Source: Nitrosospira multiformis ATCC 25196
GTDB taxonomy: Bacteria; Pseudomonadota; Gammaproteobacteria; Burkholderiales; Nitrosomonadaceae
Assembly: GCF_000196355.1 (NCBI RefSeq)
Contig: NC_007614.1
Coordinates: 2,100,001-2,132,000 of the forward strand
DNA: 32,000 bases
Reading direction: 5' to 3'
Positions within the stretch are counted from its first letter, which is position 1; the number at the start of each line of letters is the position of its first letter. The position numbers and the translations under genes were made by a program. The notes under the pieces were generated by a model that was not told the origin of the DNA, made no database searches, and worked only from the letters and a program-made list of their open reading frames with translations. Shown here one piece after another: positions 5,001 to 22,352 of this stretch.

Positions 5001-5451
5001 GCGTGCCGGCTATCCGGCCCGCTTCTTCACCGGCTTGCGCTCTGGCTTGTTCCAGCGGCAGTCCGGAAAAGTCGGTCAGCGGAATTTCAAGCCGCGGCTC
5101 GTCTTCGATGATCTGCTCCGGCAACCCTTCCGAATTGACCCTGAATATCGTACGCAACGACTCATGCCGCCTGCCCAGCGCCGCAAAGCTCCAACGCAGC
5201 GCTTCAATATCCACCCTGCCCGTCAGCCGCAATCCCCCGCTCAAATGATAAGCCGTGCTCAACGGCTCCAATTGCCATAAAAACCAGTGACGCTCCTGTG
5301 CGTATGAGAGCGGCACCCGCGCGGAAGCATTGCGGCAAGGGATATTCGATTGAAGTGCTGGAGCATGAGCTCCGGCCAGCCGCTGCGCCAGCCTCTCCCG
5401 TTGCTCGGGGGTCAGGCGGGCGCGTCTTTGAACTAGACTGCTGCTATGCAT
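2035..5451 (-). CDS. Non-ribosomal peptide synthetase, one module C-A-T
   Basis: 1138-aa ORF. C domain about aa 47-490 (nt 3982-5313): LSYAQERHWFLWQL, MHHIISDAWS. A domain about aa 515-1025 (nt 2377-3909): LKAGGAYVPLDP, YIIYTSGSTGKPKG, NTYGPTE, GELCIGGELLARGY, YRTGDLARW, GRLDHQVKIRGFRIELGEIE, NPSGKVDR. T domain about aa 1040-1108 (nt 2128-2334): FFELGGHSL. Acidic C-terminal tail EKDAEQEDLLGMAELLDLLES. Confidence 0.95.
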   Translation of the reverse strand: MHSSSLVQRRARLTPEQRERLAQRLAGAHAPALQSNIPCRNASARVPLSYAQERHWFLWQLEPLSTAYHLSGGLRLTGRVDIEALRWSFAALGRRHESLRTIFRVNSEGLPEQIIEDEPRLEIPLTDFSGLPLEQARAQAGEEAGRIAGTPFDLTQGPLLRVALIRIAAEEHLLVVVMHHIISDAWSNRIVIDEFAAHYRARVQQEQEGEKQGQEPSLPALPIQYADYAIWQRNWLEAGEKERQLAYWRSQLGEEHPVLQLPTDHPRSSRASYRAARHTFTLPAGLVTRLQRQAQSQGATLFMALLSGFQGLLYRYTGQRDIRVGVPIANRHRAEIENIVGFFVNTQVLRTLMDGRMSLHTLLDQTREAALGAQTHQDLPFERLVEALQPERNLNQNPLFQVMYNHLREDYRALEQLPGLKVENHELSEQAAQFELTLDTVEQPDGRLEATFTYAAELFEPATIGRLGNHYLLLLEQLAEHPQQNLGDIDILSEAERAQLKAWGINEQRYANTEPVHRLIERQVEVQPEAIALIFGDVELSYGELNRRANRLAHRLIRLGVGPEVKVGIAVERSIDMVVGLLATLKAGGAYVPLDPEYPQERLAYMVADSGIGLLLTQSRVRSAIPHSDQCVVLELDRLDLEEESGSNPQVALHGYNLAYIIYTSGSTGKPKGVSVAHHALVEHAQVAVGFFGLGSTDRMLQFSTINFDGFIEQLFPPLCAGAAVVLRGPALWDSETFYRELIEKRITVADLTTAYWFMLVQDFARGGPRDYGLLRQVHAGGEAMSPEGLKAWSEAGFDGVTLLNTYGPTEAAVTATVWNCSDYSQGNEISSQVSIVPIVSIGSPLAARHIYLLDANLTPVSPGIPGELCIGGELLARGYLNRGGLTAERFIADPFDGGGGRLYRTGDLARWRSDGQIEYLGRLDHQVKIRGFRIELGEIEMQLLAQPEVREAVVVARESARGSNPAGGARLVAYVSLHAEAEMEVGRLREALGKVLPDYMLPSMIVVLESLPLNPSGKVDRKALPEPEFTHTEHYEAPRGEAEEVLAGIWAQVLGVAQVGRHDNFFELGGHSLAILQVQQKLQQALSISLPLRLHFENPLLKDIASAIQEKRSRASEKDAEQEDLLGMAELLDLLES
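3424..5310. repeat. Intragenic long direct repeat, copy B (in the C-A-T NRPS gene)
   Basis: See copy A. It corresponds to aa 48-676 of the 1138-aa NRPS, that is the C domain, the C-A linker and the A domain up to core A3. Confidence 0.95.
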
Positions 5452-8500: not shown

Positions 8501-10242
8501 AAATTCAGGTGGGGTTGCAGCAATTCGACGCAGCGATCGAATTCCCGCCGAAAAACCGCCTCTCCGTGGTAAAGCTCCCACGCCATATCGATATGCTGGG
8601 CACCCTGACCGGGGAAAAGAAAGACTATGGGGCGATTTTCCGATGCCACTTGTCCGGTAACAAAGCGGTCCGCAGGCTTCCTTTCCAAAACGCCGAGCGC
8701 TTCATTCCTGTCATGGCACAGCACTACTGCGCGGCAGGCAAAACCTTTTCTTCCCGTTTGAAGGGTATAAGCGGCATCGGCAAGGGGTAAACCGGGATGT
8801 GCGCGCAGATGCTCGTGCAATCCGGCAATCATCGCATCCAGCGCCGTGCGCGTGCGCGCCGAGAGTGTGAGCAACTGACAGGCGCGTGAGGAACTCACGG
8901 GCTCTACGGGCGGAGCTTCCTCGAGCACGACGTGCACATTGGTCCCCCCGATGCCGAAGGAACTCACTCCGGCGCGCCGTGGGGCCGATTCATTCGACCA
9001 ATGCCTGCTCTCCGTGTTGACGTAAAAAGGACTCGAGGAAAAATCGATTTGTGGATTGGGCTGCTCGAAATTCAGGCTGGGCGGAAGGGTTCGGTGCTTC
9101 ATTGCCAGGACGGTTTTGATCAGGCCGGCGACGCCTGCTGCTGCATCCAGGTGACCTACATTCGTCTTGACCGATCCGATGGCGCAGAATCCGCGCTTGT
9201 CCGTGCTTTCGCGGAAGGCTTGCGTGAGCGCCGCGATCTCGATCGGATCGCCGATCGTTGTTCCCGTGCCATGCGTCTCCACGTAGCTGATCGTGTCGGC
9301 ATCCACGCCGGCGATGGCTTGGGCAGCCAGAATCACTTCCGCCTGGCCTTCCACGCTCGGTGCAGTGTAGCCCACCTTGGCCGAACCATCGTTGTTGATT
9401 GCGGACCCTTTGATTACGGCATGAATCGTATCGCCATCGGCGAGGGCGTCCGCCAGCCGCTTGAGCACGACGATCCCCACCCCGCTCCCGATCACCGTGC
9501 CCGCCGCATTTGTATCAAACGCGCGGCAGTGGCCATCCGGCGACAGAATCGCTCCAGGCTGGTAGCGATAACCGCCTTCGTGCAACAGATTGACCCAGAC
9601 ACCCCCAGCCATTGCCATGTCCGCCTCGTGATTGAGCAGGCCACGGCAAGCGACATGCACGGCCGCGAGTGAAGTGGAACAGGCTGTCTGCACGGTAATC
9701 CCCGGTCCGCGCAGATTGAGCTTGTAGGAGACGGTCGTCGTCATGGAGTCCTTGTTGTTTCCATTCATCAACCCTTGCAGCGAAGAAATGTCGTGCATAT
9801 CCGAAAATCGACCGCTGGAAAACAGATTCAGCAGCAGGTAGGTGTTAACCCCGCAGCCGGCATAAACCCCGACCGGGACCCTGCAGTTCGAGGCGTCATA
9901 GCCGGCATCTTCCAGCGCCTGCCAGGCCACCTCCAGGAACAGCCGGTGCTGCGGGTCCGTTTCCGCTGCCTCGCGCGGGGTATAACCAAAGAAAGAGGCA
10001 TCGAAAAGATCGACGCCGGGCAGTTCGGCGCCCGCCTTGATATAGTGCGGATCTTCCAGAGTCTTGCGCGAAATCCCTCGCGCCAGGAGTTCCTCGTCGG
10101 TAAAGAAAGTAACGGACTCGACTCCATCCTGCAGATTGCGCCAGAAAGTATCCACGTTATCCGCGCCTGGAAACCGGCCCGCCATACCGATAATCGCGAT
10201 ATCGATATCGTCTCTTTCCGAAAACTCTTCCGTATGATCCAT
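5518..10242 (-). CDS. Type I polyketide synthase module KS-AT-KR-ACP
   Basis: 1574-aa ORF. KS about aa 13-440 (nt 8923-10206): TACSTSL, ETHGTGT, NVGHLDAAAG. AT about aa 538-850 (nt 7693-8631): FLFPGQGAQ, GHSVGEY, and HAFHS, the motif usually linked with malonyl-CoA. KR with its structural subdomain about aa 945-1445 (nt 5908-7410): Rossmann motif ITGGLGGIG, YCAANAYLD. ACP about aa 1495-1568 (nt 5539-5760): LFELGGDSL. No DH, ER or MT motifs seen. The start ATG shares one nt with the upstream stop (TAATG at 10244-10240). Confidence 0.95.
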   Translation of the reverse strand: MDHTEEFSERDDIDIAIIGMAGRFPGADNVDTFWRNLQDGVESVTFFTDEELLARGISRKTLEDPHYIKAGAELPGVDLFDASFFGYTPREAAETDPQHRLFLEVAWQALEDAGYDASNCRVPVGVYAGCGVNTYLLLNLFSSGRFSDMHDISSLQGLMNGNNKDSMTTTVSYKLNLRGPGITVQTACSTSLAAVHVACRGLLNHEADMAMAGGVWVNLLHEGGYRYQPGAILSPDGHCRAFDTNAAGTVIGSGVGIVVLKRLADALADGDTIHAVIKGSAINNDGSAKVGYTAPSVEGQAEVILAAQAIAGVDADTISYVETHGTGTTIGDPIEIAALTQAFRESTDKRGFCAIGSVKTNVGHLDAAAGVAGLIKTVLAMKHRTLPPSLNFEQPNPQIDFSSSPFYVNTESRHWSNESAPRRAGVSSFGIGGTNVHVVLEEAPPVEPVSSSRACQLLTLSARTRTALDAMIAGLHEHLRAHPGLPLADAAYTLQTGRKGFACRAVVLCHDRNEALGVLERKPADRFVTGQVASENRPIVFLFPGQGAQHIDMAWELYHGEAVFRREFDRCVELLQPHLNFDLRTALYPNLDPNLEGGDEARKKELSARLEQTEVTQPALFAVEYALAQLWMSWGIQPAAMIGHSVGEYVAACLAGIFSLKDALRLVALRGRLLQQTETGAMLAVMLPEAEITPYLSESCDLAAVNGPELCVLSGPVAAIEALETDLRNKGVEARRLHVSHAFHSAQVEPMLPAFMELISAMELHPPQIPFLSNLSGDWITSQEATDPGYWRQHVRGTVRFDDGLRELLGNPNRILLEVGPGETLTTLARRHSEAKPEHLILSSLPHPGRANQSQAHFYLCLGRLWLAGVDIDWRSFYADERRRRVSLPTYPFERQSYWIKPGNQKTAKTAKAVGEEDRPRLMAGLEPGARRQVRDNAGPVVRPLDEWFYTPSWRRSDSIEQESILLDQGRSFILFADDHPFGVALTGHLLTLGIKPIVVSAGPAFYRQDKDHYVVRPGERQDYDLLLRNIDEDGRTLGHIFHLWSLTGNGGGRIYRESQVENQVEIEARNFFSLFYLAQALESAKQVIPSEAKVEIMVITDQFEDVTGSESLRPEKALLLGPCKVIPQEYAYLSCRLVDIELPAGDGTAKNRLVHQIVAESQAEPVSSMVAYRGPHRWIQTFEPIQCGKPGKAHLRLRNGGVYLITGGLGGIGLTLAEHLTRNYRAKLVLMGRSLLPAREQWSNVISAAEKADRTRSKIEKVMHLEALGAEVLVLQADVAIQAELKTAVTQAYEHFGAIHGVIHSAGEVGTDLISVKNGGEVAKVFAPKVQGTQALQAVFRDASLDFMLLCSSLAAIAGGLSKVDYCAANAYLDAVARGATRSAHSGFTFPVISVNWDGWRDVGMAANMAMPEGMGISPREGAEAFEHIVNNVVRPQVIVSTLDLHARLNQTQEDLVTLVGEPFALAENGQHEQGGQPHYPRPALDTAFVAPESDLEKSIAEIWQSLLGMDAVGIHDNLFELGGDSLLGIQLLSRVRAVFGIDMRPADFFRSPTVAGLAELVETKLLDEIECL

Positions 10243-13200
10243 TAATGCGTCCTCCCTGCTCTCTGCCTGCGTTGTATGAACGTCGCTCTCTGCCGCTGCG
10301 CCCGTTCCTGATGGCGCTGCAAGGGCAGACGCCCCTTATCCGCCTGCCTGTCCTCCTGGCCGAGAAATTTGGCCAGGCTCGCGACGGTGGTATATCTGAA
10401 AAGATCGATGATGGCGATGCGTGTTTTCAACCGCTCTTCCAGTTTGCATTGCACCTTGATGAGCAGCAGCGAATGCCCGCCCAGATCGAAAAAATTGTTG
10501 TGCAGCCCCACTCGGGGTAGCTCCAGGACTTCCGCCCAGATCTCCGAAATCATCGTTTCCACGGCATTGACGGGCGTCTGATAGGCCGCCTCATCGATCT
10601 GCTCCGCCAGGGGCAAGGGCAACGCCTGGCGATCGACCTTGCCATTGGGGTTGAGCGGCAGACTATCGAGCAGCACAAACGAACCAGGCAGCATGTAATC
10701 CGGAAGCACAGCAGCCAGGGCAGTCTTGAGCATGGATGCATTGAGTGTTACGCCGTGATGCGCGGCGACGTAGGCGATGAGACGCGTTCCATTGCGGCTT
10801 TCCTTTGCCACTACCGCCGCCTCGCGAACTCCGGGCTGGGCCAGCAACTGCCCCTCGATTTCGCCCAGTTCAACCCGAAAGCCGCGAAGCTTGACCTGGT
10901 GATCGAGTCGGCCCAAGTATTCGAGTTGGCCGCCATTGTCCTCATTGCGCCAGCGCACGCGATCCCCCGTGCGGTAAAGGCGGCTCCCATCCGGTGCGAA
11001 AGGATCGGCAACGAAGCGGTCTGCGGTGAGACCGGGACGATCAAGGTATCCGCGGGCAAGTCCTGTCCCACCGATATAGAGTTCTCCGGCACAGCCGGGA
11101 GGCATGATATTCAAGTCCTCATCGAGTACGTACAACTTGCGATCTCCAACGGCACGGCCGATGGGCGCGAACTCGTGGAGAATACGAACCTCAGCGGTTT
11201 CAGACGCATGGGCTACCCAGGCGGCTGGAGTGATGACCGTTTCGGTAGGCCCGTACGCGTTGACCAGCCGGGCTTGCGGAAGAGCCGCCTGCGTTGCGGC
11301 CAGGTCGGCTGCAAACCATGCTTCGCCGCCGGCTATGCAAGTGCGTACCGACGGGGCACCGTCCTGCATCAAGGGAAGCAGCATCCGTAGATAAGCGGGC
11401 GGCAAGTGCAGCGTGGTGATGCTGTGCTTTCCGATCTGATCGACGAAACCGTCGCCAGCAAGATCCCGTGTCGATGAAAGGACAAGCGTCCCACCTTCGC
11501 ACAAGGGCGTGATCCACTGTTCCGCAGCCGCATCGAAATTCATCGAGAAAAACATGAGTTCGCGATCGCCAGGACGTACGTCGTAGATTTCCCTGATCGC
11601 TGCCAGATGCATTGCCAGGGGACCATGGCTTACTCCTACTCCTTTCGGTCTGCCGGTCGATCCGGATGTATAGATGACATAAGCGAGATTGTCGGGATGT
11701 AACGCAATCTCCGGGTTGGTCTCTGCTACCCCCTTCACGTCGACGCTATCCAGTTCCAGCACCGAAAGCTTTTCCGAATCGGGGATACGGTTCCTGAGAG
11801 GGGATTGCGTCAACAGCAACCGGATGCCGCTATCCTCAACCAGATAGTCGAGGCGTTCGCGCGGATAGTCGGGATCGAGCGGTACATATGCTCCTCCTGC
11901 CTTGAGAATGCCCAGCAGGCCGACGATCATCTCGATGGAACGTTCTACCGTAATGCCAACCTTTACTTCCGCTTTGACTCCCAGAGCGATTAAATGGTGT
12001 GCGAGCCGGTTTGAGCGACAGTTCAGCTCCTGGTAGGTTATTTCGGTATCGTTGAAAATCAGGGCGCAGACGTTCGGGCGTTCTTCCGCCTGGCGCTCTA
12101 TGCGCCGATGTACAGGTTCATGGGCCGCATGACGGGCAGCTTCATGGGCGGCTGGATGAGCAGATCGATCGAACACCGCGCTACCTGAAAGGTGCGCTCC
12201 AGCATTCGCCCCCCATGCTCCCCATGCTCCGAGCTGCGCCATATCGCTCTCGCTCAACAGAGGCACATCGCCGATGGTTATTTCCGGCTGCCCGGCCAGT
12301 GCCCGCAACAGAGCCACATACTGGCGTCCGAGGCGCTCGATCGTGCGGATATCGAAGAGCTCTGACGCATAGATGAAGCTTGCACGCACGTTTCCATCGG
12401 GTGATTCGATCGTTTCCAGCGTCAGCTCGAACTGTGCAGCCTGCTCGCCCAACGGATAGTCAACGATCTTCAGCTCCTTGATTTGATCGAGCTTGCGTCG
12501 GTCGCTTACCAGATGATTAAGGGTCACCTGGAACAGCGGCGTCCGGCTCAGGCTTCTCTCCGGCTGCAATGCCTCAACCAACTGCTCGAAGGGCAAATCC
12601 TGGTGTGCCTGGGCGTCGATTGCCGCCTCCCTGACCTGCGCGAGCAGGGTTGACAAAGCCATGCGGCTGTCGATCTTCCCGCGCAGTACCTGGGTATTCA
12701 CGAAAAAACCGACGATGCCTCTGGTTTCAGTCCGGTTGCGATTGGCGACCGGCACGCCGACACGAATATCCTTTTGTCCCGTGAGGCGATAGAGCAAAGC
12801 TTGAAAACCCGCCATCAGCGCCATGAAAAGGGTCGCACTGCGGTTATCCGGGCGTTGGGCAAGGCTTCGCAGCCTGCTCAGCACATCCGGCGGCAGGTCG
12901 AAAGAATGATGTGCCGCCTGATAATTTGCCACAGGCCGCCGCGGATGATCGGCCGGCAATTCCAATACCGGATGTTCGGTGCCCAGGCAATCACGCCAGT
13001 AGGCCAGTTGCCTGTCTTTCTCGCCTGCTTCCAGCCAGTTGCGCTGCCACTCGGCATAGTCCGCGTAGCGGATGGGTAACGGGTCGAACTGCGGCAACTG
13101 CCCTTGGGCATGAGCCATATACCCGATGGCGAGCTCGTCAAGCAACACCTGCATCGAGGCACCATCGGAGATGATGTGATGCATGGCCATAACCAGGATG

Positions 13201-15647
13201 TGCTCATCCTGCGTCAGCCGGATCAGGACTACTCGCAGCAACGGGCCCTGTGTCAGATCGAAGGGATCCGAAATGATCCGGTCGGCCTCCTCTTTCGCAT
13301 ACGCTTCACGCACAAAGGCGGGAGTGTCGTCCAGATGGATGTGTGGAATATGCAACCGCACTGCCGGTTGGATCACCTGCTCCGCGGAACCTTCCGCTCC
13401 TGTCCGGAAAACGGTACGCAAGGATTCGTGGCGCGCGGCCAGCCCATCAAGGCTGGCCTGCAACGCCTGGGCATCCAGGGAGCCTGACAATCGCAACGCC
13501 TGCTTGATGTGATAGGCGGTGGATGTCCGGTCCAGTTGCCAAAGGAACCAGAGACGCTGTTGACCAAAGGAGAGCGGTGCCGCATCGGCTGCTCCAATCC
13601 TCCTTGCGGTGGAAAGAATGCGGATGCTGGCAGTGCGTCTGGGAGTGCCAACCGACAGTACGCGCTTGATTTCCTCTGCGCACTCGCGCAACTTTGGATT
13701 CTCGAACAGGCTGCGGAGCGTGAAATCGATCTGCCAATGCTCAGCAATACGCGCCACAGCCTGAACTGCCGAGAGTGAGCTTCCGCCGCTGGCAAAAAAA
13801 TGATCCTCGCGCCCCAACCCACGGCGATTCAACACGGTTTCCCAGAGGCCCGCGAGCGAAATTTCGACGTCATCCGTCAGCGTGAGTACGGGCCGAACGC
13901 TGCCGCCCAGCACGAAATTGCCAAACTCATAGACGGCATATGCGTCCAGGGTGCGCTCGCGCCAGCCTTGGCGGCAGGCTGCGCGCTGCAATTTTCCGCT
14001 GGAAGTCTTGGGCAATCCTCCCGGATTCAGTAGTACCACCACCGAGAGCGGCTCATGGCAGCTTCCGCTCACGGCCTCACTCAACGCCTGCACCAGAGTT
14101 TCAACGGCGATAAGCTTCTGCATGCCGCGGGATATCTCCACGGCCATGCCGATTCCTTCCCCGTTTTCGGTTTCTACCGAAAACGCGGCCACCCTTCCCT
14201 TCCGGGCGGCCTCCACTTCATCCTCGATCACTTGCTCGAGGTCCTGCGGGTAGACGTTCTGCCCCCTTATGATGATGAGATCCTTGCGCCTTCCTGCAAT
14301 GTATAACTGTCCATCATGTATGAAGCCAAGGTCTCCGGTGCGGAGCCAACGTCCCCCCTCGCGGGAAACAAAAGTTTCGGCTGTCTCCTCTGGTTTTCGC
14401 CAGTAGCCGCAAGCCAGACTGGCACCATCCGTCCAGATCTCTCCGATCGTACCATCGGGCAATTGGACACCTGTTTCCGGATCTACAACCCTCACCGTAT
14501 GACCGGAAGCCGGCACACCGCAAGCTACCAGAGAGGTTCCCTGCTCCGCCACTTCGACCTTGCCTTGCGCGAGCAGCTGGGTAGAGAAGCAATGTGCCTC
14601 CATGCCGTCTCCACGCGTCCCACCGGTGACAAAAAGCGTTGCTTCGGCCAGGCCGTAACAGGGATAAATTGTGCCAGGTGGAAATCCTGCCGGTGCGAAG
14701 CGTTCGATAAATGCTTTCATCGTTTCCCGGCGTACCGGTTCGGCACCCGAAAAGGCGACACGCCAGCTCGACAAATCGAGCTCTTGTAGCTGAGCATCGC
14801 TTACCCGGTCCGCACAGAGTTGAAACGCAAAATTGGGCGCGCCACTCACCGTCGCACGGTAGTGCGAAATGGCTTTCAACCATCGTACCGGTCGTTCGAT
14901 AAAAAATCGGGGCGTCATCAGCACGACAGGAATGCCCCGATGGATGGGTTGCAGCAAGCCGCCGATCAGACCCATATCGTGATACAGCGGCAACCAGCTC
15001 ACGAATATGTCGTTTGCATTGATCGACATGCCCTCCTCGAACACTCTCGTATTTGTCATCAGGCTGCCGTGGCTCACCATCACCCCTTTGGGCGTAGATG
15101 TAGACCCCGAGGTATATTGCAAAAACGCGATATCTCCCTCTGCGGGAGAACATTCACGCCATGCGGAGGCGTTATCGCATTTCACCGTGTCCACAGTCAG
15201 CACGATCGCATAAGAAAACTGTTCCACCGCGGCACGAGCAATCAAGGGCATAATTTCGCTCGTGGTCAATATGCAGCGTGCCTCAGCATCGGCTGCAATG
15301 GCGAGCAGGCGTGCCAGATGCCGTTCTCGCACCATCTCCGGCGGAAAAACGGGCACAGCGATGAGGCCTGCATAAAGACAGGCGAAGAAGCCGATTACGT
15401 AATGCTCATCATTTTCCATGAGCAACAGGGCGCGTTCGCCTGCCGAAAAACGGTCCTGCAAAATGGCTGCGAGTGCACGAACATGTTGATCCAATGTTCT
15501 ATAGTCGAATGCTTTTTCCACGGCTCCCTCGCCTTCCTGGCCCATTACCGTCAAGGCGAGGTCTGTGGGACGTGCCAACGCGAGATTACGGAGATGCGTC
15601 ACCAGGTTTTGGGGGTAAATGCGGTGAAAAATTGACCTTGGCGTCAT
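10242..15647 (-). CDS. Hybrid loading/elongation NRPS: fatty acyl-AMP ligase (FAAL)-ACP-C-A-T
   Basis: 1801-aa ORF. FAAL-like adenylation domain about aa 20-575 (nt 13923-15590): FLQYTSGSTSTPKGVMVSH, YGLAEATL, WLRTGDLGF, GRRKDLIIIRGQNVYPQDLE. ACP about aa 592-665 (nt 13653-13874): FFASGGSSLS. C about aa 688-1130 (nt 12258-13586): LSFGQQRLWFLWQL, MHHIISDGAS. A about aa 1180-1680 (nt 10608-12110): YVIYTSGSTGRPKG, NAYGPTE, GELYIGGTGLARGY, YRTGDRVRW, NPNGKVDR. T about aa 1693-1762 (nt 10362-10571): FFDLGGHSL. Arg/Gln-rich C-terminal tail. Confidence 0.95.
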   Translation of the reverse strand: MTPRSIFHRIYPQNLVTHLRNLALARPTDLALTVMGQEGEGAVEKAFDYRTLDQHVRALAAILQDRFSAGERALLLMENDEHYVIGFFACLYAGLIAVPVFPPEMVRERHLARLLAIAADAEARCILTTSEIMPLIARAAVEQFSYAIVLTVDTVKCDNASAWRECSPAEGDIAFLQYTSGSTSTPKGVMVSHGSLMTNTRVFEEGMSINANDIFVSWLPLYHDMGLIGGLLQPIHRGIPVVLMTPRFFIERPVRWLKAISHYRATVSGAPNFAFQLCADRVSDAQLQELDLSSWRVAFSGAEPVRRETMKAFIERFAPAGFPPGTIYPCYGLAEATLFVTGGTRGDGMEAHCFSTQLLAQGKVEVAEQGTSLVACGVPASGHTVRVVDPETGVQLPDGTIGEIWTDGASLACGYWRKPEETAETFVSREGGRWLRTGDLGFIHDGQLYIAGRRKDLIIIRGQNVYPQDLEQVIEDEVEAARKGRVAAFSVETENGEGIGMAVEISRGMQKLIAVETLVQALSEAVSGSCHEPLSVVVLLNPGGLPKTSSGKLQRAACRQGWRERTLDAYAVYEFGNFVLGGSVRPVLTLTDDVEISLAGLWETVLNRRGLGREDHFFASGGSSLSAVQAVARIAEHWQIDFTLRSLFENPKLRECAEEIKRVLSVGTPRRTASIRILSTARRIGAADAAPLSFGQQRLWFLWQLDRTSTAYHIKQALRLSGSLDAQALQASLDGLAARHESLRTVFRTGAEGSAEQVIQPAVRLHIPHIHLDDTPAFVREAYAKEEADRIISDPFDLTQGPLLRVVLIRLTQDEHILVMAMHHIISDGASMQVLLDELAIGYMAHAQGQLPQFDPLPIRYADYAEWQRNWLEAGEKDRQLAYWRDCLGTEHPVLELPADHPRRPVANYQAAHHSFDLPPDVLSRLRSLAQRPDNRSATLFMALMAGFQALLYRLTGQKDIRVGVPVANRNRTETRGIVGFFVNTQVLRGKIDSRMALSTLLAQVREAAIDAQAHQDLPFEQLVEALQPERSLSRTPLFQVTLNHLVSDRRKLDQIKELKIVDYPLGEQAAQFELTLETIESPDGNVRASFIYASELFDIRTIERLGRQYVALLRALAGQPEITIGDVPLLSESDMAQLGAWGAWGANAGAHLSGSAVFDRSAHPAAHEAARHAAHEPVHRRIERQAEERPNVCALIFNDTEITYQELNCRSNRLAHHLIALGVKAEVKVGITVERSIEMIVGLLGILKAGGAYVPLDPDYPRERLDYLVEDSGIRLLLTQSPLRNRIPDSEKLSVLELDSVDVKGVAETNPEIALHPDNLAYVIYTSGSTGRPKGVGVSHGPLAMHLAAIREIYDVRPGDRELMFFSMNFDAAAEQWITPLCEGGTLVLSSTRDLAGDGFVDQIGKHSITTLHLPPAYLRMLLPLMQDGAPSVRTCIAGGEAWFAADLAATQAALPQARLVNAYGPTETVITPAAWVAHASETAEVRILHEFAPIGRAVGDRKLYVLDEDLNIMPPGCAGELYIGGTGLARGYLDRPGLTADRFVADPFAPDGSRLYRTGDRVRWRNEDNGGQLEYLGRLDHQVKLRGFRVELGEIEGQLLAQPGVREAAVVAKESRNGTRLIAYVAAHHGVTLNASMLKTALAAVLPDYMLPGSFVLLDSLPLNPNGKVDRQALPLPLAEQIDEAAYQTPVNAVETMISEIWAEVLELPRVGLHNNFFDLGGHSLLLIKVQCKLEERLKTRIAIIDLFRYTTVASLAKFLGQEDRQADKGRLPLQRHQERAQRQRATFIQRRQRAGRTH

Positions 15648-15683: not shown

Positions 15684-16526
15684 TCAGGCGTGATCTATCT
15701 GGCGAACGGAATGATCGCAAGCCTGCGGAGATGCACCCCGATCTTGGCAGGGCTCCAGGCTTGACAGGGGAAGCCAGGATGTCTGTCGAGACACTTCCCG
15801 GCTTTTCCCTTGGGTTGAAGCCCGGTCATGAGTCTGGAATGCGAGAGCCGCTGCATAGCCATCGGATACCGGAAGGCGCCAGGCTTGTATTTCCGGCCAC
15901 TCCGGGGAATCATGCGCAATCTGGTAAGCCTCGTCGTCCCGGGGCAGAATGGACACGGATTGCAGGTGTTCGGAGATGCCCAATCCCAAGGCTTTCAGCA
16001 CGGATTCCTTCGCTACCCAGTGCTGGATGAAATCTTTGGAGGTCTGCAACGCAAGGTGGCGCTCCAATGGAGAAAAGACGTAGGCCGCGAGCTCCTCGAG
16101 GTTTTTAGCATTGAGGACGCGCTCTTCGCATTCGATATCGACGCCGACCGGTCCGCTGGTCGAAAGAGCAATCAGGGCGCAACAACCGGCATGAGAAACA
16201 TTGAACTCGATCTCTGGCTCACCTTCCAGCCGCGGCTTGCCATATGGATTGACCACGAAGCGCAGCTGGTCGGGCGGCAACATCAACCGCGCTCCGACAA
16301 GTCGCCGCAGCGCGGCACGGGTTGCGACGGACCGCACACGGTCTTCTTGCCGCCGAAACCGTTGCGCATGCGCACGCTCTTCTGCAGATAACAACGCCAG
16401 TTCGGCATCCGGCACCGAGAGCCCAACATCAAGCTCGAGCAACCACACTTCCATGCCATCCGGAATGCGCTCGGACAGCGGCAAGCGCCTTATGGGAGAC
16501 CTTAGTGGATACCTTATGGAATACAT
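15684..16526 (-). CDS. 4'-phosphopantetheinyl transferase (Sfp/EntD type)
   Basis: Motifs FNVSHAG, GVDIE, WVAKESVLKALG. The longest ORF starts at 16526, overlapping the thioesterase stop by 13 nt. An internal ATG at 16454 (MEVWLLELD...) is an equally plausible start. Confidence 0.85.
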   Translation of the reverse strand: MYSIRYPLRSPIRRLPLSERIPDGMEVWLLELDVGLSVPDAELALLSAEERAHAQRFRRQEDRVRSVATRAALRRLVGARLMLPPDQLRFVVNPYGKPRLEGEPEIEFNVSHAGCCALIALSTSGPVGVDIECEERVLNAKNLEELAAYVFSPLERHLALQTSKDFIQHWVAKESVLKALGLGISEHLQSVSILPRDDEAYQIAHDSPEWPEIQAWRLPVSDGYAAALAFQTHDRASTQGKSREVSRQTSWLPLSSLEPCQDRGASPQACDHSVRQIDHA

Positions 16527-17278
16527 AGGGACATATCAGCAGGTTCTCGATGTGCTTCCTGATATACCTCTGGACGGTATAGAGCCATTCTCTGGACGAG
16601 CACGGGAAGAAAGGCCTCTTCGTGCTGACGGAGAAAGAAATGCCCTCCTTCAAACAGATCCAGTGACAACTCTTCTGTAGTTTCGGATTGCCATGCTTCC
16701 AGTTTCGACTCATGAATTTCATCGCCCCGGCCCCCAAAAACATGAATCGGCAGCGGCAAAGGCAAGGATTGCGTGTGGCGAAAGCTCGCGCAGATGCGGT
16801 AGTCCGCACGCAGCAGGCTGAGCGTCAGGGACAACAACTCCGGGCTCTCGAACACCTCTTCCGGTGTCCCTTTCTGCTTGCGCAGATCAGCAATGAGCGA
16901 CGCGTCGGCATTCTTGTCCGCATAACGCCGCCAGTCCTGCCGGGAGGGTGCGGCACAGCCCGACACAAACAGGGCAAGAGGCAAGGGTCTTTCTCTCTTG
17001 CGCAAGGAATGGGCAATTCCGAAAGCGAGCAGCGCTCCCATGCTGTGCCCGAAGAATGCGTATCGACGGGGCGGGCACGCCTCGATCTCATCCGTTAGGC
17101 GCTCGACCAGTGAAGGGAAGCTTTTCGCGAACATTTCATCCAGGCGGCCTCCACGACCCGGCAGCTCGACCGGTTCCACTTGCACCCAGGAAGGCAATCT
17201 GCGCCGCCAGCGCAGATACATGACCGAGCTCGCGCCTGCGCATGGCAGCGCGAAAAGTGTCAGGATCGGGGACATCAC
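16514..17278 (-). CDS. Type II (editing) thioesterase
   Basis: 254 aa. Alpha/beta-hydrolase nucleophile elbow GHSMGA, N-terminal [11 protein letters not shown]-terminal GGHFFL. These are typical of NRPS/PKS-associated TEII proteins. The start overlaps the stop of the upstream MbtH-like gene by 4 nt. Confidence 0.9.
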
Positions 17279-17505
17279 CTGGCTTCAGCGGGACATTGTT
17301 CGTCCATGAAGCGCCGCAGGCTGAGGGGGCGCATATCCGTCCAGACTTTCTCTACATGTTCCAGGCAGGTTTTCTTGTCTCCCAGCACTCCGGTGTCCCG
17401 CCATCCTCCCGGAATGGCTTTCCACTCCGGCCAGATGGAGTACTGCTCTTCATGATTGACCAGCACGCGAAATGTCCCGTCTTCGCGGTCGAAGCAACTT
17501 GTCAT
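17275..17505 (-). CDS. MbtH-like protein
   Basis: [24 protein letters not shown]...[17 protein letters not shown] matches the MbtH signature (three conserved Trp, SxWP, PxGW, WTDxRP). I prefer the ATG at 17505 because an AAGGGGA Shine-Dalgarno sequence lies 6 nt upstream. The longest ORF starts at 17550. Confidence 0.9.
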
Positions 17506-17609
17506 GCTTGTTCCCCTTATGTCTGTAAACAGATGCGTTCCAGATTCCATGGACGAATTCCACAGATTGGAAATGCGTCTTAATCTTATTTGGAACCTTG
17601 ATTAGCTAG

Positions 17610-17633
17610 ACGAATAAGGATTCGAAGAATTTA
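17610..17633 (-). promoter_or_regulatory. Candidate ECF-sigma (PvdS-type iron-starvation box) promoter: TAAAT-N16-CGT
   Basis: The minus strand reads ccTAAATtcttcgaatccttattCGTct. TAAAT is the complement of 17629-17633, CGT the complement of 17610-17612, and the spacer is exactly 16 nt. It is oriented toward the mbtH-like gene, 57 nt upstream of the 17550 ATG and 102 nt upstream of the 17505 ATG. Confidence 0.5.
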
Positions 17634-18005: not shown

Positions 18006-18044
18006 TGACCCTACCCCAGAATCAGTACCGGCGCATTCAACCGG
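18006..18044. repeat. IS30 element left terminal inverted repeat
   Basis: tgaccctaccccagaatcagtaccggcgcattcaaccgg. The reverse complement of 19221-19260 is tgaccctaccccaataaactgtaccggcgcattcaaccgg. The outer 13 nt and inner 21 nt are identical, with a short mismatched or indel core. Confidence 0.8.
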
Positions 18045-18086
18045 TCAGTGCAACACCTATTGATTCTTGATTTGTAGAGGTGTGCA

Positions 18087-19229
18087 ATGGCTAGCGTATA
18101 TGGTGGCATGACTGATGAACGCAAAGCGTGTATTTGGCGGTTATGGCAGCAAGGGGTTGCTATGAGTGTAATTGCTAGAGATATTGCAAAGCCGCCTGCG
18201 ACGGTATATTCGTATCTTCTCTACCATGGAGGCATAAAGCCGAGGCAACGATCTCGTCGATCTGGTTGCCTGTCGCTGAAGGAACGTGAAATGATTTCTC
18301 GTGGATTGGCTAGTTGCAAAAGCCTGCGCAGGATTAGCCAGGAACTTGGTCGGGCTGCCTCTACGATATCAAGAGAAATTGCCCGCAATGGCGGACCTGA
18401 AAAATATCGGGCATGCCATGCCGAGAAAGCTTTTCTCAAGCGCAGTCGACGCCCCAAGCCCACATTGCTTTCCCAGGATGAGGAGCTAAGAGGCGTGGTA
18501 ACAGCACTGCTGGAGGCTGATTGGTCGCCAGAACAGATAACCGGATGGCTCAAGCGACACTCTTCTGACGGAAAAGCGATGTGTGTATCGCATGAGACGA
18601 TCTACAAATCCCTGTTCATTCAAACTCGTGGCGTACTACGCCAGGAACTGAAGAAGCACTTGCGCACCAAAAGAATGTTTCGTCACGCCAAGTCCCACCG
18701 GGTTGCAGGCAGAGGACACATTACCGATGCGATTTCTATTCGAGAGCGCCCTGCACAGGTGGAAGACAGGGCCCTGCCGGGGCATTGGGAAGGAGACCTG
18801 CTTATAGGCTCGAGTAATAGTGGCATTGCTACGATGGTCGAGAGATACTCCAGATTCACCGTGCTTTGCAAAGTGCAGGACAAGCGCGCTGAAAGTGTTG
18901 TTCAGTCCTTGATAACCCAGATGCGCATGCTTCCTGAGCAACTGCGTAAGAGCCTGACATGGGATAGAGGCCAGGAACTTGCCGCACACAAGCGATTTAC
19001 CATGGCCACCAATATGGCCGTCTATTTCTGCGATCCGAGCAGCCCATGGCAAAGGGGAACCAATGAGAATACCAATGGCCTGCTAAGACAATACTTTCCA
19101 AAAGGAACGAGTTTGGCGCCATACACACAGTGTCAACTGAATGAGGTCGCCGAAAAACCAAACTCTCGCCCGAGGAAAACCTTGGATTTTAGAACACCCG
19201 CCCAAGTACTGAATGAAGCGTTGCACTGA
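18087..19229 (+). CDS. IS30-family DDE transposase
   Basis: 380 aa. N-terminal helix-turn-helix regions, HWEGDL, TWDRGQE, PWQRGTNENTNGLLRQYFPKG (the IS30 DD(33)E-type catalytic signature). Confidence 0.95.
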   Translation: MASVYGGMTDERKACIWRLWQQGVAMSVIARDIAKPPATVYSYLLYHGGIKPRQRSRRSGCLSLKEREMISRGLASCKSLRRISQELGRAASTISREIARNGGPEKYRACHAEKAFLKRSRRPKPTLLSQDEELRGVVTALLEADWSPEQITGWLKRHSSDGKAMCVSHETIYKSLFIQTRGVLRQELKKHLRTKRMFRHAKSHRVAGRGHITDAISIRERPAQVEDRALPGHWEGDLLIGSSNSGIATMVERYSRFTVLCKVQDKRAESVVQSLITQMRMLPEQLRKSLTWDRGQELAAHKRFTMATNMAVYFCDPSSPWQRGTNENTNGLLRQYFPKGTSLAPYTQCQLNEVAEKPNSRPRKTLDFRTPAQVLNEALH

Positions 19230-19260
19230 CCGGTTGAATGCGCCGGTACAGTTTATTGGG
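19221..19260. repeat. IS30 element right terminal inverted repeat
   Basis: ccggttgaatgcgccggtacagtttattggggtagggtca, the inverted partner of 18006-18044. Confidence 0.8.
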
Positions 19261-19756
19261 GTAGGGTCACAGAACGTTTCGGGTAGTCGTAACGATGAGA
19301 CTGTGCCAGGGGGCAGCAGCAGAACCGGGCCTCCTACGTCTTGCGCTCATCCCCTTGAAATTTATGCATCGTTTGTCGACGCATTTGGCGGCTGCAGACT
19401 TTTCCTGGCGGAACAAGGTGGGTGCCGGTATAGCCATCACACACGGTTGGGGCTGGTTGTGAATCCAGGGGCAAAGATTGGGAATAACGTAACCCTTTTT
19501 CACGGGGTTACCCTTGGGTGATCGCATTTCCCCTGACGGAAATAGTCAAACTGAACACCCAGTGATTGAGGATGAAGTCTGGATCGGGCCTCACGCGATC
19601 ATCGTCGGAGGAGTAACCATAGGTCGCGGAAGCAGAATCGCAGGAGGCGCATTTGTTACAGAGAACGTCCCTCCCTATTCAATTGTATCGGGAAATCCCT
19701 CTACGATTGTCAAAGCGAATTGTACGCCGGATGTAATGAATCCCGCTCCCCTCTGA
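19261..19756 (+). pseudogene. Hexapeptide-repeat (left-handed beta-helix) O-acetyltransferase, CysE/WcaB-like; 5'-truncated and frameshifted
   Basis: The frame starting at 19262 reads ...LLRLALIPLKFMHRLSTHLAAADFSWRNKVGAGIAITHGWG, then stops. The next frame continues LGLVVNPGAKIGNNVTLFHGVTLG*. The original frame resumes GDRISPDGNSQTEHPVIEDEVWIGPHAIIVGGVTIGRGSRIAGGAFVTENVPPYSIVSGNPSTIV. Both frame changes fall in G runs (about 19448-19451 and about 19516-19518). The N-terminal part expected for this family is missing at the IS30 boundary. Confidence 0.7.
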
Positions 19757-19929: not shown

Positions 19930-20145
19930 TCAATCCTCGGCAGGGGGTTCAAAGGGTGGAACAAGACCGGTGATGAGCCAGAGGCGGGAAGCCTCATCGT
20001 AGGCCTTTCTATGGGCAAGGTTCATGCTTAGCCAACCGATCAGCTCTTCCCGTTCAATGGGGCTGAGTGACTCGTGCTCACGTATCACCCACTCGACTGC
20101 TGTATGCCACACCTGATCCGAATCCTGGTCCTCTGAATTCGCCAC
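19930..20145 (-). CDS. FecR-type anti-sigma factor, N-terminal (sigma-binding, DUF4880-like) domain only; possible gene remnant
   Basis: 71 aa, GTG start with AGGTGA upstream. AVEWVIREHESLSPIEREELIGWLSMNLAHRKAYDEASRLW fits the pattern A..W..rl......s......l..WL..dp.h..Ay......w of FecR/FpvR N-termini. No transmembrane or periplasmic part follows. It lies 141 nt downstream of the ECF sigma gene. Confidence 0.6.
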   Translation of the reverse strand: MANSEDQDSDQVWHTAVEWVIREHESLSPIEREELIGWLSMNLAHRKAYDEASRLWLITGLVPPFEPPAED

Positions 20146-20286: not shown

Positions 20287-20796
20287 CTAGGTGGATTGGA
20301 GAGCGGCGCGGCAGTGGTCTAGTGCCTCGTGGATCAGGATATTCACTAGGGAAGTCGAAATAGCCAGTTCGGCAGCGATGGCACGGTGCGTCTGCCCTTC
20401 CAGACGATGAAGTTCAAAAGCGCGCCTCGTCCGCTCCGGAAGTTCCGATATTGCTTTTGCAACCAGTTTCAGATGCTCGCGGCTGATGACCGTGGCTTCG
20501 GGCATGCCAATATGGGAGGGCACATGCAGCCCGTTGTCTTCGCCCTCGAAAAGATTCAATTCGAATGAAATGCGCCGATGATGATCGATGGCAAGATTGC
20601 GAACCATCTGGAACAGGTATGCGACGGGCTGCTTGACGTGGAATACTGCCGCTGCTTCCGATACTTTGAGATATGCATCCTGCACCACATCCTCCGCCCG
20701 CTCGGGATTACCGAGAATCTTGAGCGCCGCCCAGCGCAACTGGGACCGATGAGCCATGAAGACTTCGCTCAGTTCAACCTGCTCTTCGACAATCAT
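20287..20796 (-). CDS. ECF sigma-70 factor, FecI/PvdS (iron-starvation) group
   Basis: RAEDVVQDAYLKV (region 2), VAYLFQMVRNLAIDHHRR, LPERTRRAFELHRLEGQTHRAIAAELAISTSLVNILIHEALDHCR (region 4 HTH). By my recollection these blocks closely parallel Pseudomonas PvdS. I prefer the ATG at 20796 (GGAG 8 nt upstream). The longest ORF starts at 20829. Confidence 0.9.
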   Translation of the reverse strand: MIVEEQVELSEVFMAHRSQLRWAALKILGNPERAEDVVQDAYLKVSEAAAVFHVKQPVAYLFQMVRNLAIDHHRRISFELNLFEGEDNGLHVPSHIGMPEATVISREHLKLVAKAISELPERTRRAFELHRLEGQTHRAIAAELAISTSLVNILIHEALDHCRAALQST

Positions 20797-20833
20797 TACC
20801 GCATCTCCACAAAAAGCATATAATAACAATAAC

Positions 20834-20852
20834 GAGAAGTATTCTTATTATC
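20834..20852 (-). promoter_or_regulatory. Fur-box-like 19-mer upstream of the ECF sigma gene
   Basis: The minus strand reads GATAATAAGAATACTTCTC, 14/19 matches to GATAATGATAATCATTATC by my count. It lies 38-56 nt upstream of the preferred sigma start, in the AT-rich divergent intergenic region. Confidence 0.4.
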
Positions 20853-20943
20853 ATATAGCAATTTCTATTTTACAATATGGATCAACTTCCGGTTCTGAAG
20901 GATAGAGTGGATATCCTCACTTTCCGGATCGGCTTGAACCGAA

Positions 20944-22332: not shown

Positions 22333-22352
22333 AACAACTGGCAAGCAAGGGC

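What the first reader, a model, noticed from the sequence alone, without database searches (positions are those of the whole stretch)
17610..17633. Exact PvdS-type iron-starvation box (TAAAT-N16-CGT) upstream of the mbtH-TE-PPTase-NRPS operon
The minus strand reads TAAAT tcttcgaatccttatt CGT with the canonical 16-nt spacer, correctly oriented, 57-102 nt upstream of the two candidate mbtH-like start codons. The motif specifies 8 nt, so it is expected by chance about once per 65 kb per strand. Finding it in the single 420-bp promoter region, in the right orientation, next to a PvdS-like ECF sigma gene 2.7 kb away, is a coherent signal. It predicts that the assembly line is transcribed by an alternative sigma factor rather than sigma-70.
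Basis: partly seen in the sequence, partly recalled or inferred. Interest (0 to 1): 0.7.

Follow-up and report, generated by a model that had tools for sequence, protein, structure and literature searches.

The report
Iron-starvation sigma promoter before siderophore operon
The short motif is a real, evolutionarily conserved promoter for an iron-starvation sigma factor that sits in front of a siderophore-type NRPS/PKS operon in Nitrosospira multiformis; it is a correct but ordinary example of a known regulatory design.

Summary
The motif TAAAT-N16-CGT(C) is present exactly as reported, on the minus strand at 17633-17610 (C at 17609). It is the only match in the window.

One match in 32 kb is not significant (0.49 expected). 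One match in the 500-nt upstream region has p about 0.013.

Comparison with other genomes settles it. All 19 related loci with the layout sigma, mbtH, thioesterase, PPTase, NRPS carry a pentamer-N16-CGTC site 62-106 nt before mbtH. Those loci come from Nitrosospira, Nitrosomonas and seven other genera. The pentamer is exactly TAAAT in five unrelated genera.

A matrix built only from sites in other genera scores the window site 26.6 bits. The next best site in the window scores 7.1, and the best shuffle scores 16.6.

Among N. multiformis strains, homology upstream of mbtH begins about 8 nt before TAAAT.

The sigma gene (20287-20796) belongs to the same NCBIfam equivalog as Pseudomonas PvdS. Its own promoter overlaps a conserved Fur-like operator.

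An experimental precedent exists: the Herbaspirillum seropedicae mbtH promoter depends on PfrI.

This is a new member of a known kind, of modest interest.

Side finding: a 71-aa stand-alone FecR-type anti-sigma domain gene follows the sigma gene throughout this clade.

The parts
17629..17633 (-). -35 element TAAAT of the iron-starvation (IS box) promoter
   Evidence: The aligned position is TAAAT in the N. multiformis group and in Aquabacterium, Exilibacterium, Microbulbifer, Massilia and Duganella. It is TGAAT, TGTAT or TATAT in other Nitrosospira and Nitrosomonas.
17613..17628 (-). 16-nt spacer (tcttcgaatccttatt). It carries the features shared with other genera: T(C/T) directly after TAAAT and TT directly before CGTC.
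   Evidence: Site alignments.
17609..17612 (-). -10 element CGTC
   Evidence: Invariant in all 19 mbtH-linked loci at N16 spacing. TCGTCTA is invariant, and TCGTCTAG is kept in all but one (L009, TCGTCTAA), across the Nitrosospira loci.
17506..17603 (-). Predicted transcription start (about 17600-17603, inferred) and a roughly 100-nt 5' UTR. It contains a conserved block AATAAGATTAAGACGCATTTCC (17590-17569) and the RBS AAGGGGA (17518-17512).
   Evidence: Nearly invariant in five N. multiformis-group genomes. The fold is not unusual, z = -0.72. No Rfam family matches. The start position is inferred from the known geometry of PvdS promoters and is not measured.
17275..17505 (-). mbtH-like gene (76 aa), first gene of the operon
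   Evidence: Pfam PF03621, E = 2.9e-23. Start supported.
16514..17278 (-). Type II thioesterase
   Evidence: Pfam PF00975, E = 8e-48. Overlaps the mbtH stop codon.
15684..16526 (-). Sfp/HetI-type 4'-phosphopantetheinyl transferase
   Evidence: Pfam PF01648 and PF22624. NCBIfam HetI-like.
10242..15647 (-). NRPS (A-T-C-A-T)
5518..10242 (-). PKS module (KS-AT-KR-ACP)
2035..5451 (-). NRPS module (C-A-T). The next NRPS gene runs from 2034 off the left end of the window.
20287..20796 (-). PvdS-family ECF sigma factor (169 aa), identical to ABB75134.1 of N. multiformis
   Evidence: NF005448 at 231 bits against a cutoff of 190. The same equivalog is hit by a Pseudomonas PvdS orthologue (292 bits), a Herbaspirillum sigma (217) and a Massilia sigma (199). 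46% and 57% identity. Names and accessions.
20828..20875 (-). Sigma-70-type promoter of the sigma gene (TTGTAA 20875-20870, 17 nt, GATAAT 20852-20847) overlapped by the Fur-like operator GATAATAAGAATACTTCTCGTTATT (20852-20828). The same block overlaps a divergent promoter-like site for the RND efflux operon.
   Evidence: 14/19 match to the Fur consensus. (conserved at -56 in all Nitrosospira; 15-17/19 boxes in other genera). (the only conserved block in an otherwise unalignable intergenic region).
19930..20145 (-). Stand-alone FecR/PupR-type anti-sigma domain protein (71 aa, DUF4880) with no membrane or periplasmic part
   Evidence: Pfam PF16220, E = 7.7e-7. AF2 model is a three-helix bundle, pLDDT 81. 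Best PDB fold match is the PupR cytoplasmic domain 5COS, TM 0.66/0.76-0.80, rmsd 1.3 A. Present directly after the sigma gene in 21 of 27 loci of this clade. Absent from the Cupriavidus, Pandoraea and typical Pseudomonas pvdS loci; two outliers carry longer FecR-like ORFs (L079 335 aa, L030 157 aa).
18006..19269 (+). IS30-family insertion sequence (transposase 18087-19229, inverted repeats of about 41-50 nt). Not part of the regulatory unit; it separates the sigma gene from the promoter.
   Evidence: Absent from L001. It replaces about 620 bp that are present there.

Best explanation
The site at 17633-17609 (minus strand) is the promoter of the operon mbtH, thioesterase, PPTase, NRPS/PKS. It is read by the PvdS-family ECF sigma factor encoded at 20287-20796.

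Proposed cascade:
1. With enough iron, Fur-Fe(II) sits on the operator that overlaps the -10 and start region of the sigma gene's sigma-70 promoter (20828-20875). It probably also covers the divergent promoter of the RND efflux operon. Little sigma is made.
2. Under iron starvation the sigma is made and binds core RNA polymerase. Region 4.2 contacts TAAAT and region 2 contacts CGTC.
3. Transcription starts about 6-10 nt downstream of CGTC, near 17600-17603. A transcript of at least 17.5 kb for a siderophore-type assembly line is produced.
4. The small DUF4880 protein encoded just after the sigma gene probably binds the sigma and tunes its activity.

Shown here: motif, orientation, conservation, sigma family membership, and the conserved Fur-like operator.

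Inferred: which sigma reads the site, the start position, the iron response, Fur binding, and the role of the DUF4880 protein.
For: - The motif is exact and unique in the window.
- Chance placement in the upstream region has p about 0.013, or 0.003 with CGTC.
- The gene order sigma, (DUF4880), mbtH, TE, PPTase, NRPS is conserved in nine genera.
- Every one of the 19 loci has x5-N16-CGTC 62-106 nt before mbtH. Exact TAAAT occurs in five genera whose flanking DNA is unrelated.
- Among five N. multiformis-group genomes, homology begins about 8 nt upstream of TAAAT and is nearly perfect down to the ATG. The DNA further upstream differs from strain to strain.
- The leave-one-out matrix gives 31.0 bits against 7.6 for the next site.
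- The matrix built from 10 sites outside the Nitrosomonadaceae gives 26.6 bits against 7.1, with a null maximum of 16.6.
- Across 80 loci (1.5 Mb) only 22 hits reach 16 bits, and the listed hits of 27 bits or more all lie just before the first biosynthetic gene.
- The sigma belongs to the PvdS equivalog and shares the region 2 and region 4.2 motifs.
- A Fur-like operator is conserved at the sigma promoter.
- No sigma-70-like promoter was found in the conserved block.
- Precedent: in H. seropedicae a canonical IS box before mbtH drives expression that depends on iron and on PfrI (PMC6037834). ECF09-type sigma genes are typically next to mbtH-like genes (PMC8908255).
Against: - There are no transcript, reporter or binding data for this organism.
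- In the nearest other Nitrosospira, Nitrosovibrio and Nitrosomonas genomes the -35 pentamer is TGAAT, TGTAT, TATAT or even TGTTA. TAAAT itself is therefore not under strict selection in this lineage.
- The region 4.2 recognition helix of the Nitrosomonadaceae sigmas (SLVNILIHEA) differs from the TLVNFMIRDA of PvdS and of the genera with exact TAAAT. Specificity may have shifted.
- Only one site exists in the 32-kb window, so a regulon could not be shown.
- A sigma-70-like site with a Fur-like box lies 120 nt further upstream (17752-17779) and could add transcription in this particular strain.
Confidence: 0.85

Rival explanations
1. The match is a chance occurrence in AT-rich intergenic DNA. 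The operon would instead be driven by a sigma-70 promoter under direct Fur repression, for instance TAGAAA-16-TATTAT at 17779-17752, which overlaps a Fur-like box at 17751-17769.
For: One match per 32 kb is expected about half the time. A sigma-70-like site and a 13/19 Fur-like box exist 120-150 nt upstream.
Against: That upstream segment occurs only in the window and in L001. L002, L003 and L026 lack it and still keep the IS-box block intact. The IS-box site is conserved in position across nine genera and scores far above the null.
Confidence: 0.05
2. The conserved block is functional but is not read by the neighbouring sigma. It could be a promoter for a different ECF sigma, or an operator for a repressor or activator.
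For: Many ECF sigmas use CGTC-type -10 elements (own knowledge). The -35 varies within the Nitrosomonadaceae. A conserved element of unknown role follows CGTC (17590-17569).
Against: The site co-occurs with this sigma clade in every syntenic locus and lies directly downstream of the sigma/DUF4880 pair. Strong sites are otherwise almost absent from 1.5 Mb of loci. Sigmas of the same family were shown to use this motif in Pseudomonas and Herbaspirillum.
Confidence: 0.07
3. The operon is transcribed mainly by read-through from upstream, either from the sigma/DUF4880 transcript or from an outward promoter of the IS30 element.
For: In strains without insertions, only about 300 nt separate the DUF4880 gene from mbtH on the same strand.
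Against: In the window, an oppositely oriented pseudogene and the IS element (transposase pointing away from mbtH) lie in between. The IS end is 373 nt from the -35 element. Read-through would not explain selective conservation of the x5-N16-CGTC block.
Confidence: 0.03

Closest known systems
PvdS-dependent iron-starvation (IS) box promoters of the pyoverdine genes in Pseudomonas (TAAAT-N16-CGT)
   Same: Identical core motif and spacing. The sigma belongs to the same NCBIfam equivalog (NF005448) and is 46% identical to a Pseudomonas PvdS orthologue. The targets are siderophore NRPS genes. The sigma gene lies behind a Fur-like box.
   Different: - The sigma gene is directly linked to its target operon.
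- The region 4.2 helix differs (ILIHE against FMIRD).
- Close relatives tolerate TGAAT and TGTAT at -35.
- No FpvR-type membrane anti-sigma gene was seen; a soluble 71-aa DUF4880 protein is encoded next to the sigma instead.
PfrI-dependent mbtH promoter of the serobactin cluster in Herbaspirillum seropedicae
   Same: A canonical IS box lies before an mbtH gene that opens an NRPS siderophore operon next to a pvdS-like sigma gene. Dependence on iron and on the sigma was shown by reporter fusion (PMC6037834). The sigma encoded in a Herbaspirillum locus (L023) is 57% identical to the window sigma.
   Different: In H. seropedicae the sigma gene follows a TonB-dependent transducer gene (cirA), and the authors found no anti-sigma factor. 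The window has no transducer gene, and the sigma gene has its own promoter with a Fur-like box. The Herbaspirillum loci I could read (L022, L023) are receptor-only modules, not the serobactin cluster.
OrbS/MbaS-dependent promoters of the ornibactin and malleobactin clusters in Burkholderia
   Same: - The sigma gene comes first in the cluster and an mbtH-like gene follows.
- The sigma gene is Fur-regulated.
- The promoter elements are TAAA and CGTC (own knowledge of Agnoli et al. 2019; that paper could not be opened).
- The context matches the ECF09 description (PMC8908255).
   Different: The window sigma has no N-terminal extension and no Cys-rich C-terminal iron sensor. It ends DHCRAALQST and keeps only the one conserved Cys, whereas OrbS has Cys196-X2-Cys-X3-Cys-X5-Cys. 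The spacer has no A-tract after the -35 element (TAAATTCTTCG).
FecI/FecR and PupI/PupR cell-surface signalling pairs
   Same: The protein encoded after the sigma gene has the FecR/PupR N-terminal anti-sigma domain.
   Different: It consists of that domain only, about 60 structured residues. It has no transmembrane or periplasmic part, so it cannot itself receive a signal from an outer-membrane transducer.

Membership tests
PvdS-type IS-box promoter | -35 element TAAAT | tested here: met
   17633-17629 on the minus strand.
PvdS-type IS-box promoter | 16-nt spacer followed by CGT as the -10 element | tested here: met
   Spacer 17628-17613, CGT 17612-17610, then C at 17609.
PvdS-type IS-box promoter | Sense orientation, a short distance upstream of an iron-acquisition or siderophore gene | tested here: met
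   104 nt before the mbtH ATG (17505), which opens an operon of TE, PPTase and NRPS/PKS genes. That the product is a siderophore is inferred from context only.
PvdS-type IS-box promoter | A PvdS-family ECF sigma factor is present in the genome | tested here: met
   NF005448 equivalog at 231 bits against a cutoff of 190, the same model that a Pseudomonas PvdS orthologue hits. 46% identity.
PvdS-type IS-box promoter | The site is under selection (conserved in orthologous promoters) | tested here: met
   19 of 19 syntenic loci carry x5-N16-CGTC at the same place. Matrix scores are 26.6-31 bits against a null of at most 17.7.
PvdS-type IS-box promoter | Transcription starts downstream of CGT and depends on the sigma factor and on iron limitation | not testable with these tools
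   Needs 5'-RACE or dRNA-seq, a reporter or in vitro transcription.
Fur to ECF sigma cascade (PvdS/OrbS paradigm) | A Fur box overlaps the promoter of the sigma gene | tested here: inconclusive
   A 14/19 match to the Fur consensus starts at the -10 hexamer. It is invariant across Nitrosospira in an otherwise unalignable spacer, and other genera have 15-17/19 boxes. Equal 14/19 matches also occur inside coding DNA of the window. Fur binding was not tested.
OrbS-type sigma and promoter | TAAA and CGTC elements | tested here: met
   TAAA-N17-CGTC fits.
OrbS-type sigma and promoter | A-tract extending downstream from the -35 element (own knowledge of Agnoli et al. 2019) | tested here: not met
   The sequence after TAAA is TTCTTCG.
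OrbS-type sigma and promoter | Cys-rich C-terminal iron-sensing motif and an N-terminal extension on the sigma | tested here: not met
   The protein is 169 aa and ends DHCRAALQST with a single Cys. The motif definition comes from PMC9023288.
FecR/PupR-type anti-sigma factor (for the 71-aa protein) | N-terminal cytoplasmic anti-sigma domain (DUF4880) | tested here: met
   PF16220 at 29.3 bits against a cutoff of 25. The fold matches PupR 5COS.
FecR/PupR-type anti-sigma factor (for the 71-aa protein) | Transmembrane helix and periplasmic signal-receiving domain | tested here: not met
   The ORFs measure only 74-111 codons from stop to stop in 21 loci, and the protein ends about 10 residues after the domain.

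The most novel reading that the evidence does not exclude
A distinct clade of PvdS-like sigma factors is controlled by a soluble 70-aa protein. That protein is nothing more than the FecR/PupR anti-sigma domain, and its gene lies between the sigma gene and the IS-box promoter. The clade was found here in Nitrosospira, Massilia, Duganella, Microbulbifer, Exilibacterium, Aquabacterium, Noviherbaspirillum, Herminiimonas and Herbaspirillum.

This would be a third way of gating an iron-starvation sigma after translation, alongside the membrane anti-sigma FpvR of Pseudomonas and the built-in Cys-rich iron sensor of OrbS. It would also qualify the textbook view that ECF09-type sigmas next to mbtH genes have no partner protein.
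Probability: 0.5. Interest if true: 0.55.

Novelty: new member of a known kind. Interest (0 to 1): 0.3.

Why it matters
The result gives a concrete, testable wiring diagram for how a soil ammonia oxidiser would switch on a costly NRPS/PKS assembly line when iron is scarce: Fur, then an ECF sigma, then a single promoter.

The design is already well known from Pseudomonas, Burkholderia and Herbaspirillum, so the regulatory principle is not new.

Three things are useful for annotation and for promoter engineering:
- The conserved extended motif, TAAATT(C/T)-N13-(T)CGTC.
- The drift of the -35 element within the Nitrosomonadaceae, together with changes in the region 4.2 helix.
- The consistent presence of a mini anti-sigma-domain gene.

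Tried and rejected
- **More sites in the window.** Neither the relaxed pattern TRWAT-N16-CGTC nor the two matrices found another site, including in front of the RND efflux operon. A regulon could not be shown.
- **RNA element in the 5' UTR.** No Rfam family reaches threshold anywhere in the window. The UTR fold is not unusual, z = -0.72.
- **Direct Fur control of the mbtH promoter.** The conserved block after CGTC looked Fur-like by eye. A matrix built from the sigma-gene operator does not pick it up: the best non-self hit scores 6.7 bits and lies elsewhere. Dropped.
- **The upstream sigma-70-like site with a Fur-like box (17752-17779).** It lies in a strain-specific insert.
- **Pseudomonas loci as a positive control.** The exact motif gave 38 matches against about 32 expected under uniform base composition. 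They cluster by position, but the test was not informative as designed.
- **Extending the cluster leftwards.** The look-up through an encoding contig ended inside the NRPS genes.
- **Herbaspirillum loci L022 and L023.** They turned out to be receptor-only modules, not the serobactin cluster. I therefore could not check whether the H. seropedicae pfrI gene is followed by a DUF4880 gene.
- **Papers.** Agnoli et al. 2019 and Norton et al. 2008 are not in the library. No paper mentioning the locus tags tried (Nmul_A181x-184x) was found.

Full report
**Observation.** The minus strand reads TAAAT (17633-17629), a 16-nt spacer, then CGT (17612-17610) followed by C at 17609. This is the only match in the window, both to TAAAT-N16-CGT and to the relaxed pattern TRWAT-N16-CGTC.

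One match in 32 kb is unremarkable. Shuffles give 0.49 matches per window, and 41 of 100 shuffles contain at least one. The chance of a match on the sense strand of the 500-nt, 41% GC region upstream of mbtH is 0.013, or 0.003 with CGTC. Taken alone, the motif is suggestive but not conclusive.

**Surroundings.** The window comes from Nitrosospira multiformis. The sigma protein is identical to ABB75134.1, which lies on a 3.18-Mb contig.

Downstream of the motif, on the minus strand, lies a tightly packed operon:
- mbtH, 17275-17505
- type II thioesterase, 16514-17278
- PPTase, 15684-16526
- NRPS with domains A-T-C-A-T, 10242-15647
- PKS module KS-AT-KR-ACP, 5518-10242
- NRPS module C-A-T, 2035-5451
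- a further NRPS gene that runs off the left end of the window

The mbtH start is 17505, not 17550. It has the RBS AAGGGGA 6 nt upstream. The upstream ATG is absent or out of frame in close relatives.

Upstream of the motif, in order, are:
- 373 nt of intergenic DNA
- an IS30-family element at 18006-19269 (transposase on the plus strand; inverted repeats)
- the 3' part of a hexapeptide acetyltransferase pseudogene. The gene is intact in strain Nl7 (L001 11052-11645). In the window the IS replaces about 620 bp of it.
- a 71-aa DUF4880 gene, 19930-20145
- the ECF sigma gene, 20287-20796

An RND efflux operon diverges from the sigma gene: OEP 20944-22332, MFP 22317-23558 and RND 23491-26841.

**Comparative test of the promoter.** A scan of species-representative genomes with the sigma protein returned 80 loci. 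The order sigma, (DUF4880), mbtH, TE, (PPTase), NRPS is kept in Nitrosospira, Nitrosovibrio, Nitrosomonas, Noviherbaspirillum, Aquabacterium, Exilibacterium, Microbulbifer, Massilia, Duganella and Caldimonas.

In all 19 loci with mbtH, a pentamer-N16-CGTC site lies 62-106 nt before the mbtH start. The pentamers are:
- TAAAT in the N. multiformis group and in Aquabacterium, Exilibacterium, Microbulbifer, Massilia and Duganella. The flanking DNA of these genera is unrelated in sequence and in GC content.
- TAAAC in Noviherbaspirillum
- TGAAC in Caldimonas
- TGAAT, TGTAT, TATAT or TGTTA in the other Nitrosospira and Nitrosomonas genomes. There TCGTCTA is invariant, and TCGTCTAG is kept in all but L009 (TCGTCTAA).

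Among five N. multiformis-group genomes the alignment is nearly perfect from 8 nt upstream of TAAAT down to the ATG. Further upstream the DNA differs from strain to strain.

Two position matrices confirm the site. One trained without the window site scores it 31.0 bits; the next best site scores 7.6 and the null maximum is 17.7. One trained only on 10 sites from outside the Nitrosomonadaceae scores it 26.6 bits, against 7.1 for the next site and a null maximum of 16.6.

Across all 80 loci (1.5 Mb) only 22 hits reach 16 bits. In the loci whose hits were listed, every hit of 27 bits or more lies directly before the first biosynthetic gene: mbtH, an ATP-grasp-like gene or a PPTase gene. The site is therefore a conserved, specific element that co-occurs with this sigma clade.

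**The sigma factor.** It matches NCBIfam NF005448 (an equivalog model) at 231 bits against a cutoff of 190. The same model is hit above cutoff by three other sigmas:
- a Pseudomonas orthologue (292 bits), whose 90% cluster contains a member named PvdS
- a Herbaspirillum sigma (217 bits)
- a Massilia sigma (199 bits)

Identity is 46% to the Pseudomonas protein and 57% to the Herbaspirillum one. The region 2 motif (AEDVVQDAY...YLFQMVRNLAIDH) and the region 4.2 motif (LPERTR.AFEL.RL) are shared.

One difference stands out. The presumed recognition helix reads TLVNFMIRDA in Pseudomonas and in every genus with exact TAAAT or TAAAC. It reads SLVNILIH(E/D/Q)A in the Nitrosomonadaceae, the group in which the -35 pentamer drifts. 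This is a correlation only. It suggests relaxed or shifted -35 specificity in this lineage. If so, the perfect PvdS consensus in N. multiformis is compatible with the local specificity but not required by it.

**Control of the sigma gene.** A sigma-70-type promoter (TTGTAA, 17 nt, GATAAT; 20875-20847) is overlapped from its -10 hexamer onward by GATAATAAGAATACTTCTCGTTATT. That sequence matches the Fur consensus at 14 of 19 positions. The block is invariant across Nitrosospira, while the rest of the intergenic region cannot be aligned. Other genera carry 15-17/19 Fur boxes before their sigma genes. A promoter-like site for the divergent efflux operon overlaps the same block. Fur binding is inferred, not shown. 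Equal 14/19 matches also occur inside coding DNA of the window.

**Mechanism.** Iron limitation releases Fur from the sigma promoter. The sigma then loads onto core polymerase and reads TAAAT and CGTC. Transcription starts near 17600-17603 and runs through the operon of at least 17.5 kb.

Experimental precedent comes from three systems:
- In H. seropedicae, a canonical IS box before mbtH drives a reporter only at low iron and only when the pvdS-like gene pfrI is present (PMC6037834).
- The IS-box consensus is established for pyoverdine genes (PMC2235872).
- ECF09-type sigma genes are typically adjacent to mbtH-like genes (PMC8908255).

**Rival explanations.**
- Chance match with a Fur-controlled sigma-70 promoter. 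A sigma-70-like site with a 13/19 Fur-like box exists at 17752-17779. It lies in DNA found only in the window and in L001, whereas the IS-box block is kept in strains that lack it.
- A different factor reads the block. This cannot be excluded without experiments, but it is made unlikely by the strict co-occurrence with this sigma clade.
- Read-through from upstream. In this strain it is blocked by an oppositely oriented pseudogene and by the IS element.

**Comparison with known systems.** The site meets every sequence-level criterion of a PvdS-type IS box. It also fits the OrbS elements TAAA and CGTC. However, the sigma lacks the N-terminal extension and the Cys-rich C-terminal sensor of OrbS, and the spacer has no A-tract. 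The closest described case is the Herbaspirillum mbtH promoter. I found no paper on this locus in Nitrosospira.

**Side finding.** The 71-aa protein encoded after the sigma gene is a stand-alone FecR/PupR-type anti-sigma domain:
- Pfam DUF4880, E = 7.7e-7
- The AF2 model is a three-helix bundle with pLDDT 81.
- The best PDB fold match is the PupR cytoplasmic domain, TM 0.66/0.76-0.80 and rmsd 1.3 A. The E-value is not significant for so small a domain.
- The only PDB sequence hit is PupR, at E = 0.48.

Homologous short ORFs of 74-111 codons from stop to stop follow the sigma gene in 21 of the 27 loci L001-L027. Apart from the Cupriavidus locus L027 (44%), the sigmas of these loci are about 50% or more identical to the window sigma. 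The Cupriavidus, Pandoraea and typical Pseudomonas pvdS loci lack them. Two outliers carry longer FecR-like ORFs after the sigma gene: L079 (335 aa) and L030 (157 aa). The literature mentions an "ECF sigma-DUF4880 module" only in descriptive terms. Whether the protein inhibits or assists the sigma is unknown.

**Verdict.** The principle is already known, so this is a new member of a known kind, of modest interest.

Noticed in passing
window 19930-20145 (-): A 71-aa stand-alone FecR/PupR-type anti-sigma domain (DUF4880) gene lies directly after the PvdS-like sigma gene. It is conserved in 21 of 27 loci of this sigma clade and absent from typical Pseudomonas pvdS loci. It has no transmembrane or periplasmic part. 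It is a possible soluble partner of a sigma group that is usually said to lack an anti-sigma factor.
   Followed up: partly
window 18006-19269 (IS) and 19270-19759 (pseudogene): An IS30-family element (380-aa transposase, inverted repeats of about 41-50 nt) sits inside a hexapeptide acetyltransferase gene that is intact in strain Nl7 (L001 11052-11645). About 620 bp present in L001 are missing next to the IS, and no target-site duplication is visible. The DNA between the DUF4880 gene and the promoter is a strain-variable insertion hot spot. L002 and L026 have nothing inserted there.
   Followed up: partly
window 20828-20876: The divergent promoter region between the sigma gene and the RND efflux operon contains one block that is invariant across Nitrosospira: TTGTAA, 17 nt, GATAAT, then GATAATAAGAATAnTTCTCGTTATT. 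It looks like a shared Fur operator for both promoters. The efflux operon has no IS box.
   Followed up: partly
sigma residues about 150-160 (window about 20320-20350) and the -35 elements of L005-L012: The region 4.2 helix reads SLVNILIH(E/D/Q)A in the Nitrosomonadaceae and TLVNFMIRDA in all genera with TAAAT or TAAAC. The -35 pentamer drifts to TGAAT, TGTAT or TATAT only in the former group. This may be co-variation between the sigma factor and its promoter.
   Followed up: partly
window 17569-17590 (-): A conserved block in the early transcribed region (AATAAGATTAAGACGCATTTCC, with related AATAAGAAGCATTCT in other Nitrosospira and Nitrosomonas) is followed by several GGA motifs. Its function is unknown. 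It does not score as a copy of the sigma-gene operator, and the UTR fold is not unusual.
   Followed up: partly
window 201-1800 and 3624-5223: 1.6 kb of two consecutive NRPS modules are 100% identical at the DNA level, offset by 3423 nt. This points to recent duplication or gene conversion. It probably explains why draft assemblies break here: contig FNVK01000038 ends inside the NRPS genes.
   Followed up: partly
window 5518-10242 (-): The assembly line is an NRPS-PKS hybrid with a KS-AT-KR-ACP module after an A-T-C-A-T protein. The product and its iron-binding groups were not predicted. No hydroxylase or N-oxygenase genes lie within the window.
   Followed up: no
L022 14337-14369 (-) and L023 about 14400 (-): In two Herbaspirillum loci the homologous sigma-DUF4880 pair is not next to an NRPS operon. 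It is next to a PepSY-like gene and a TonB-dependent receptor gene, and the receptor gene is preceded by TAAAC-N16-CGTC. The same module therefore also serves receptor-only (siderophore piracy) loci.
   Followed up: partly
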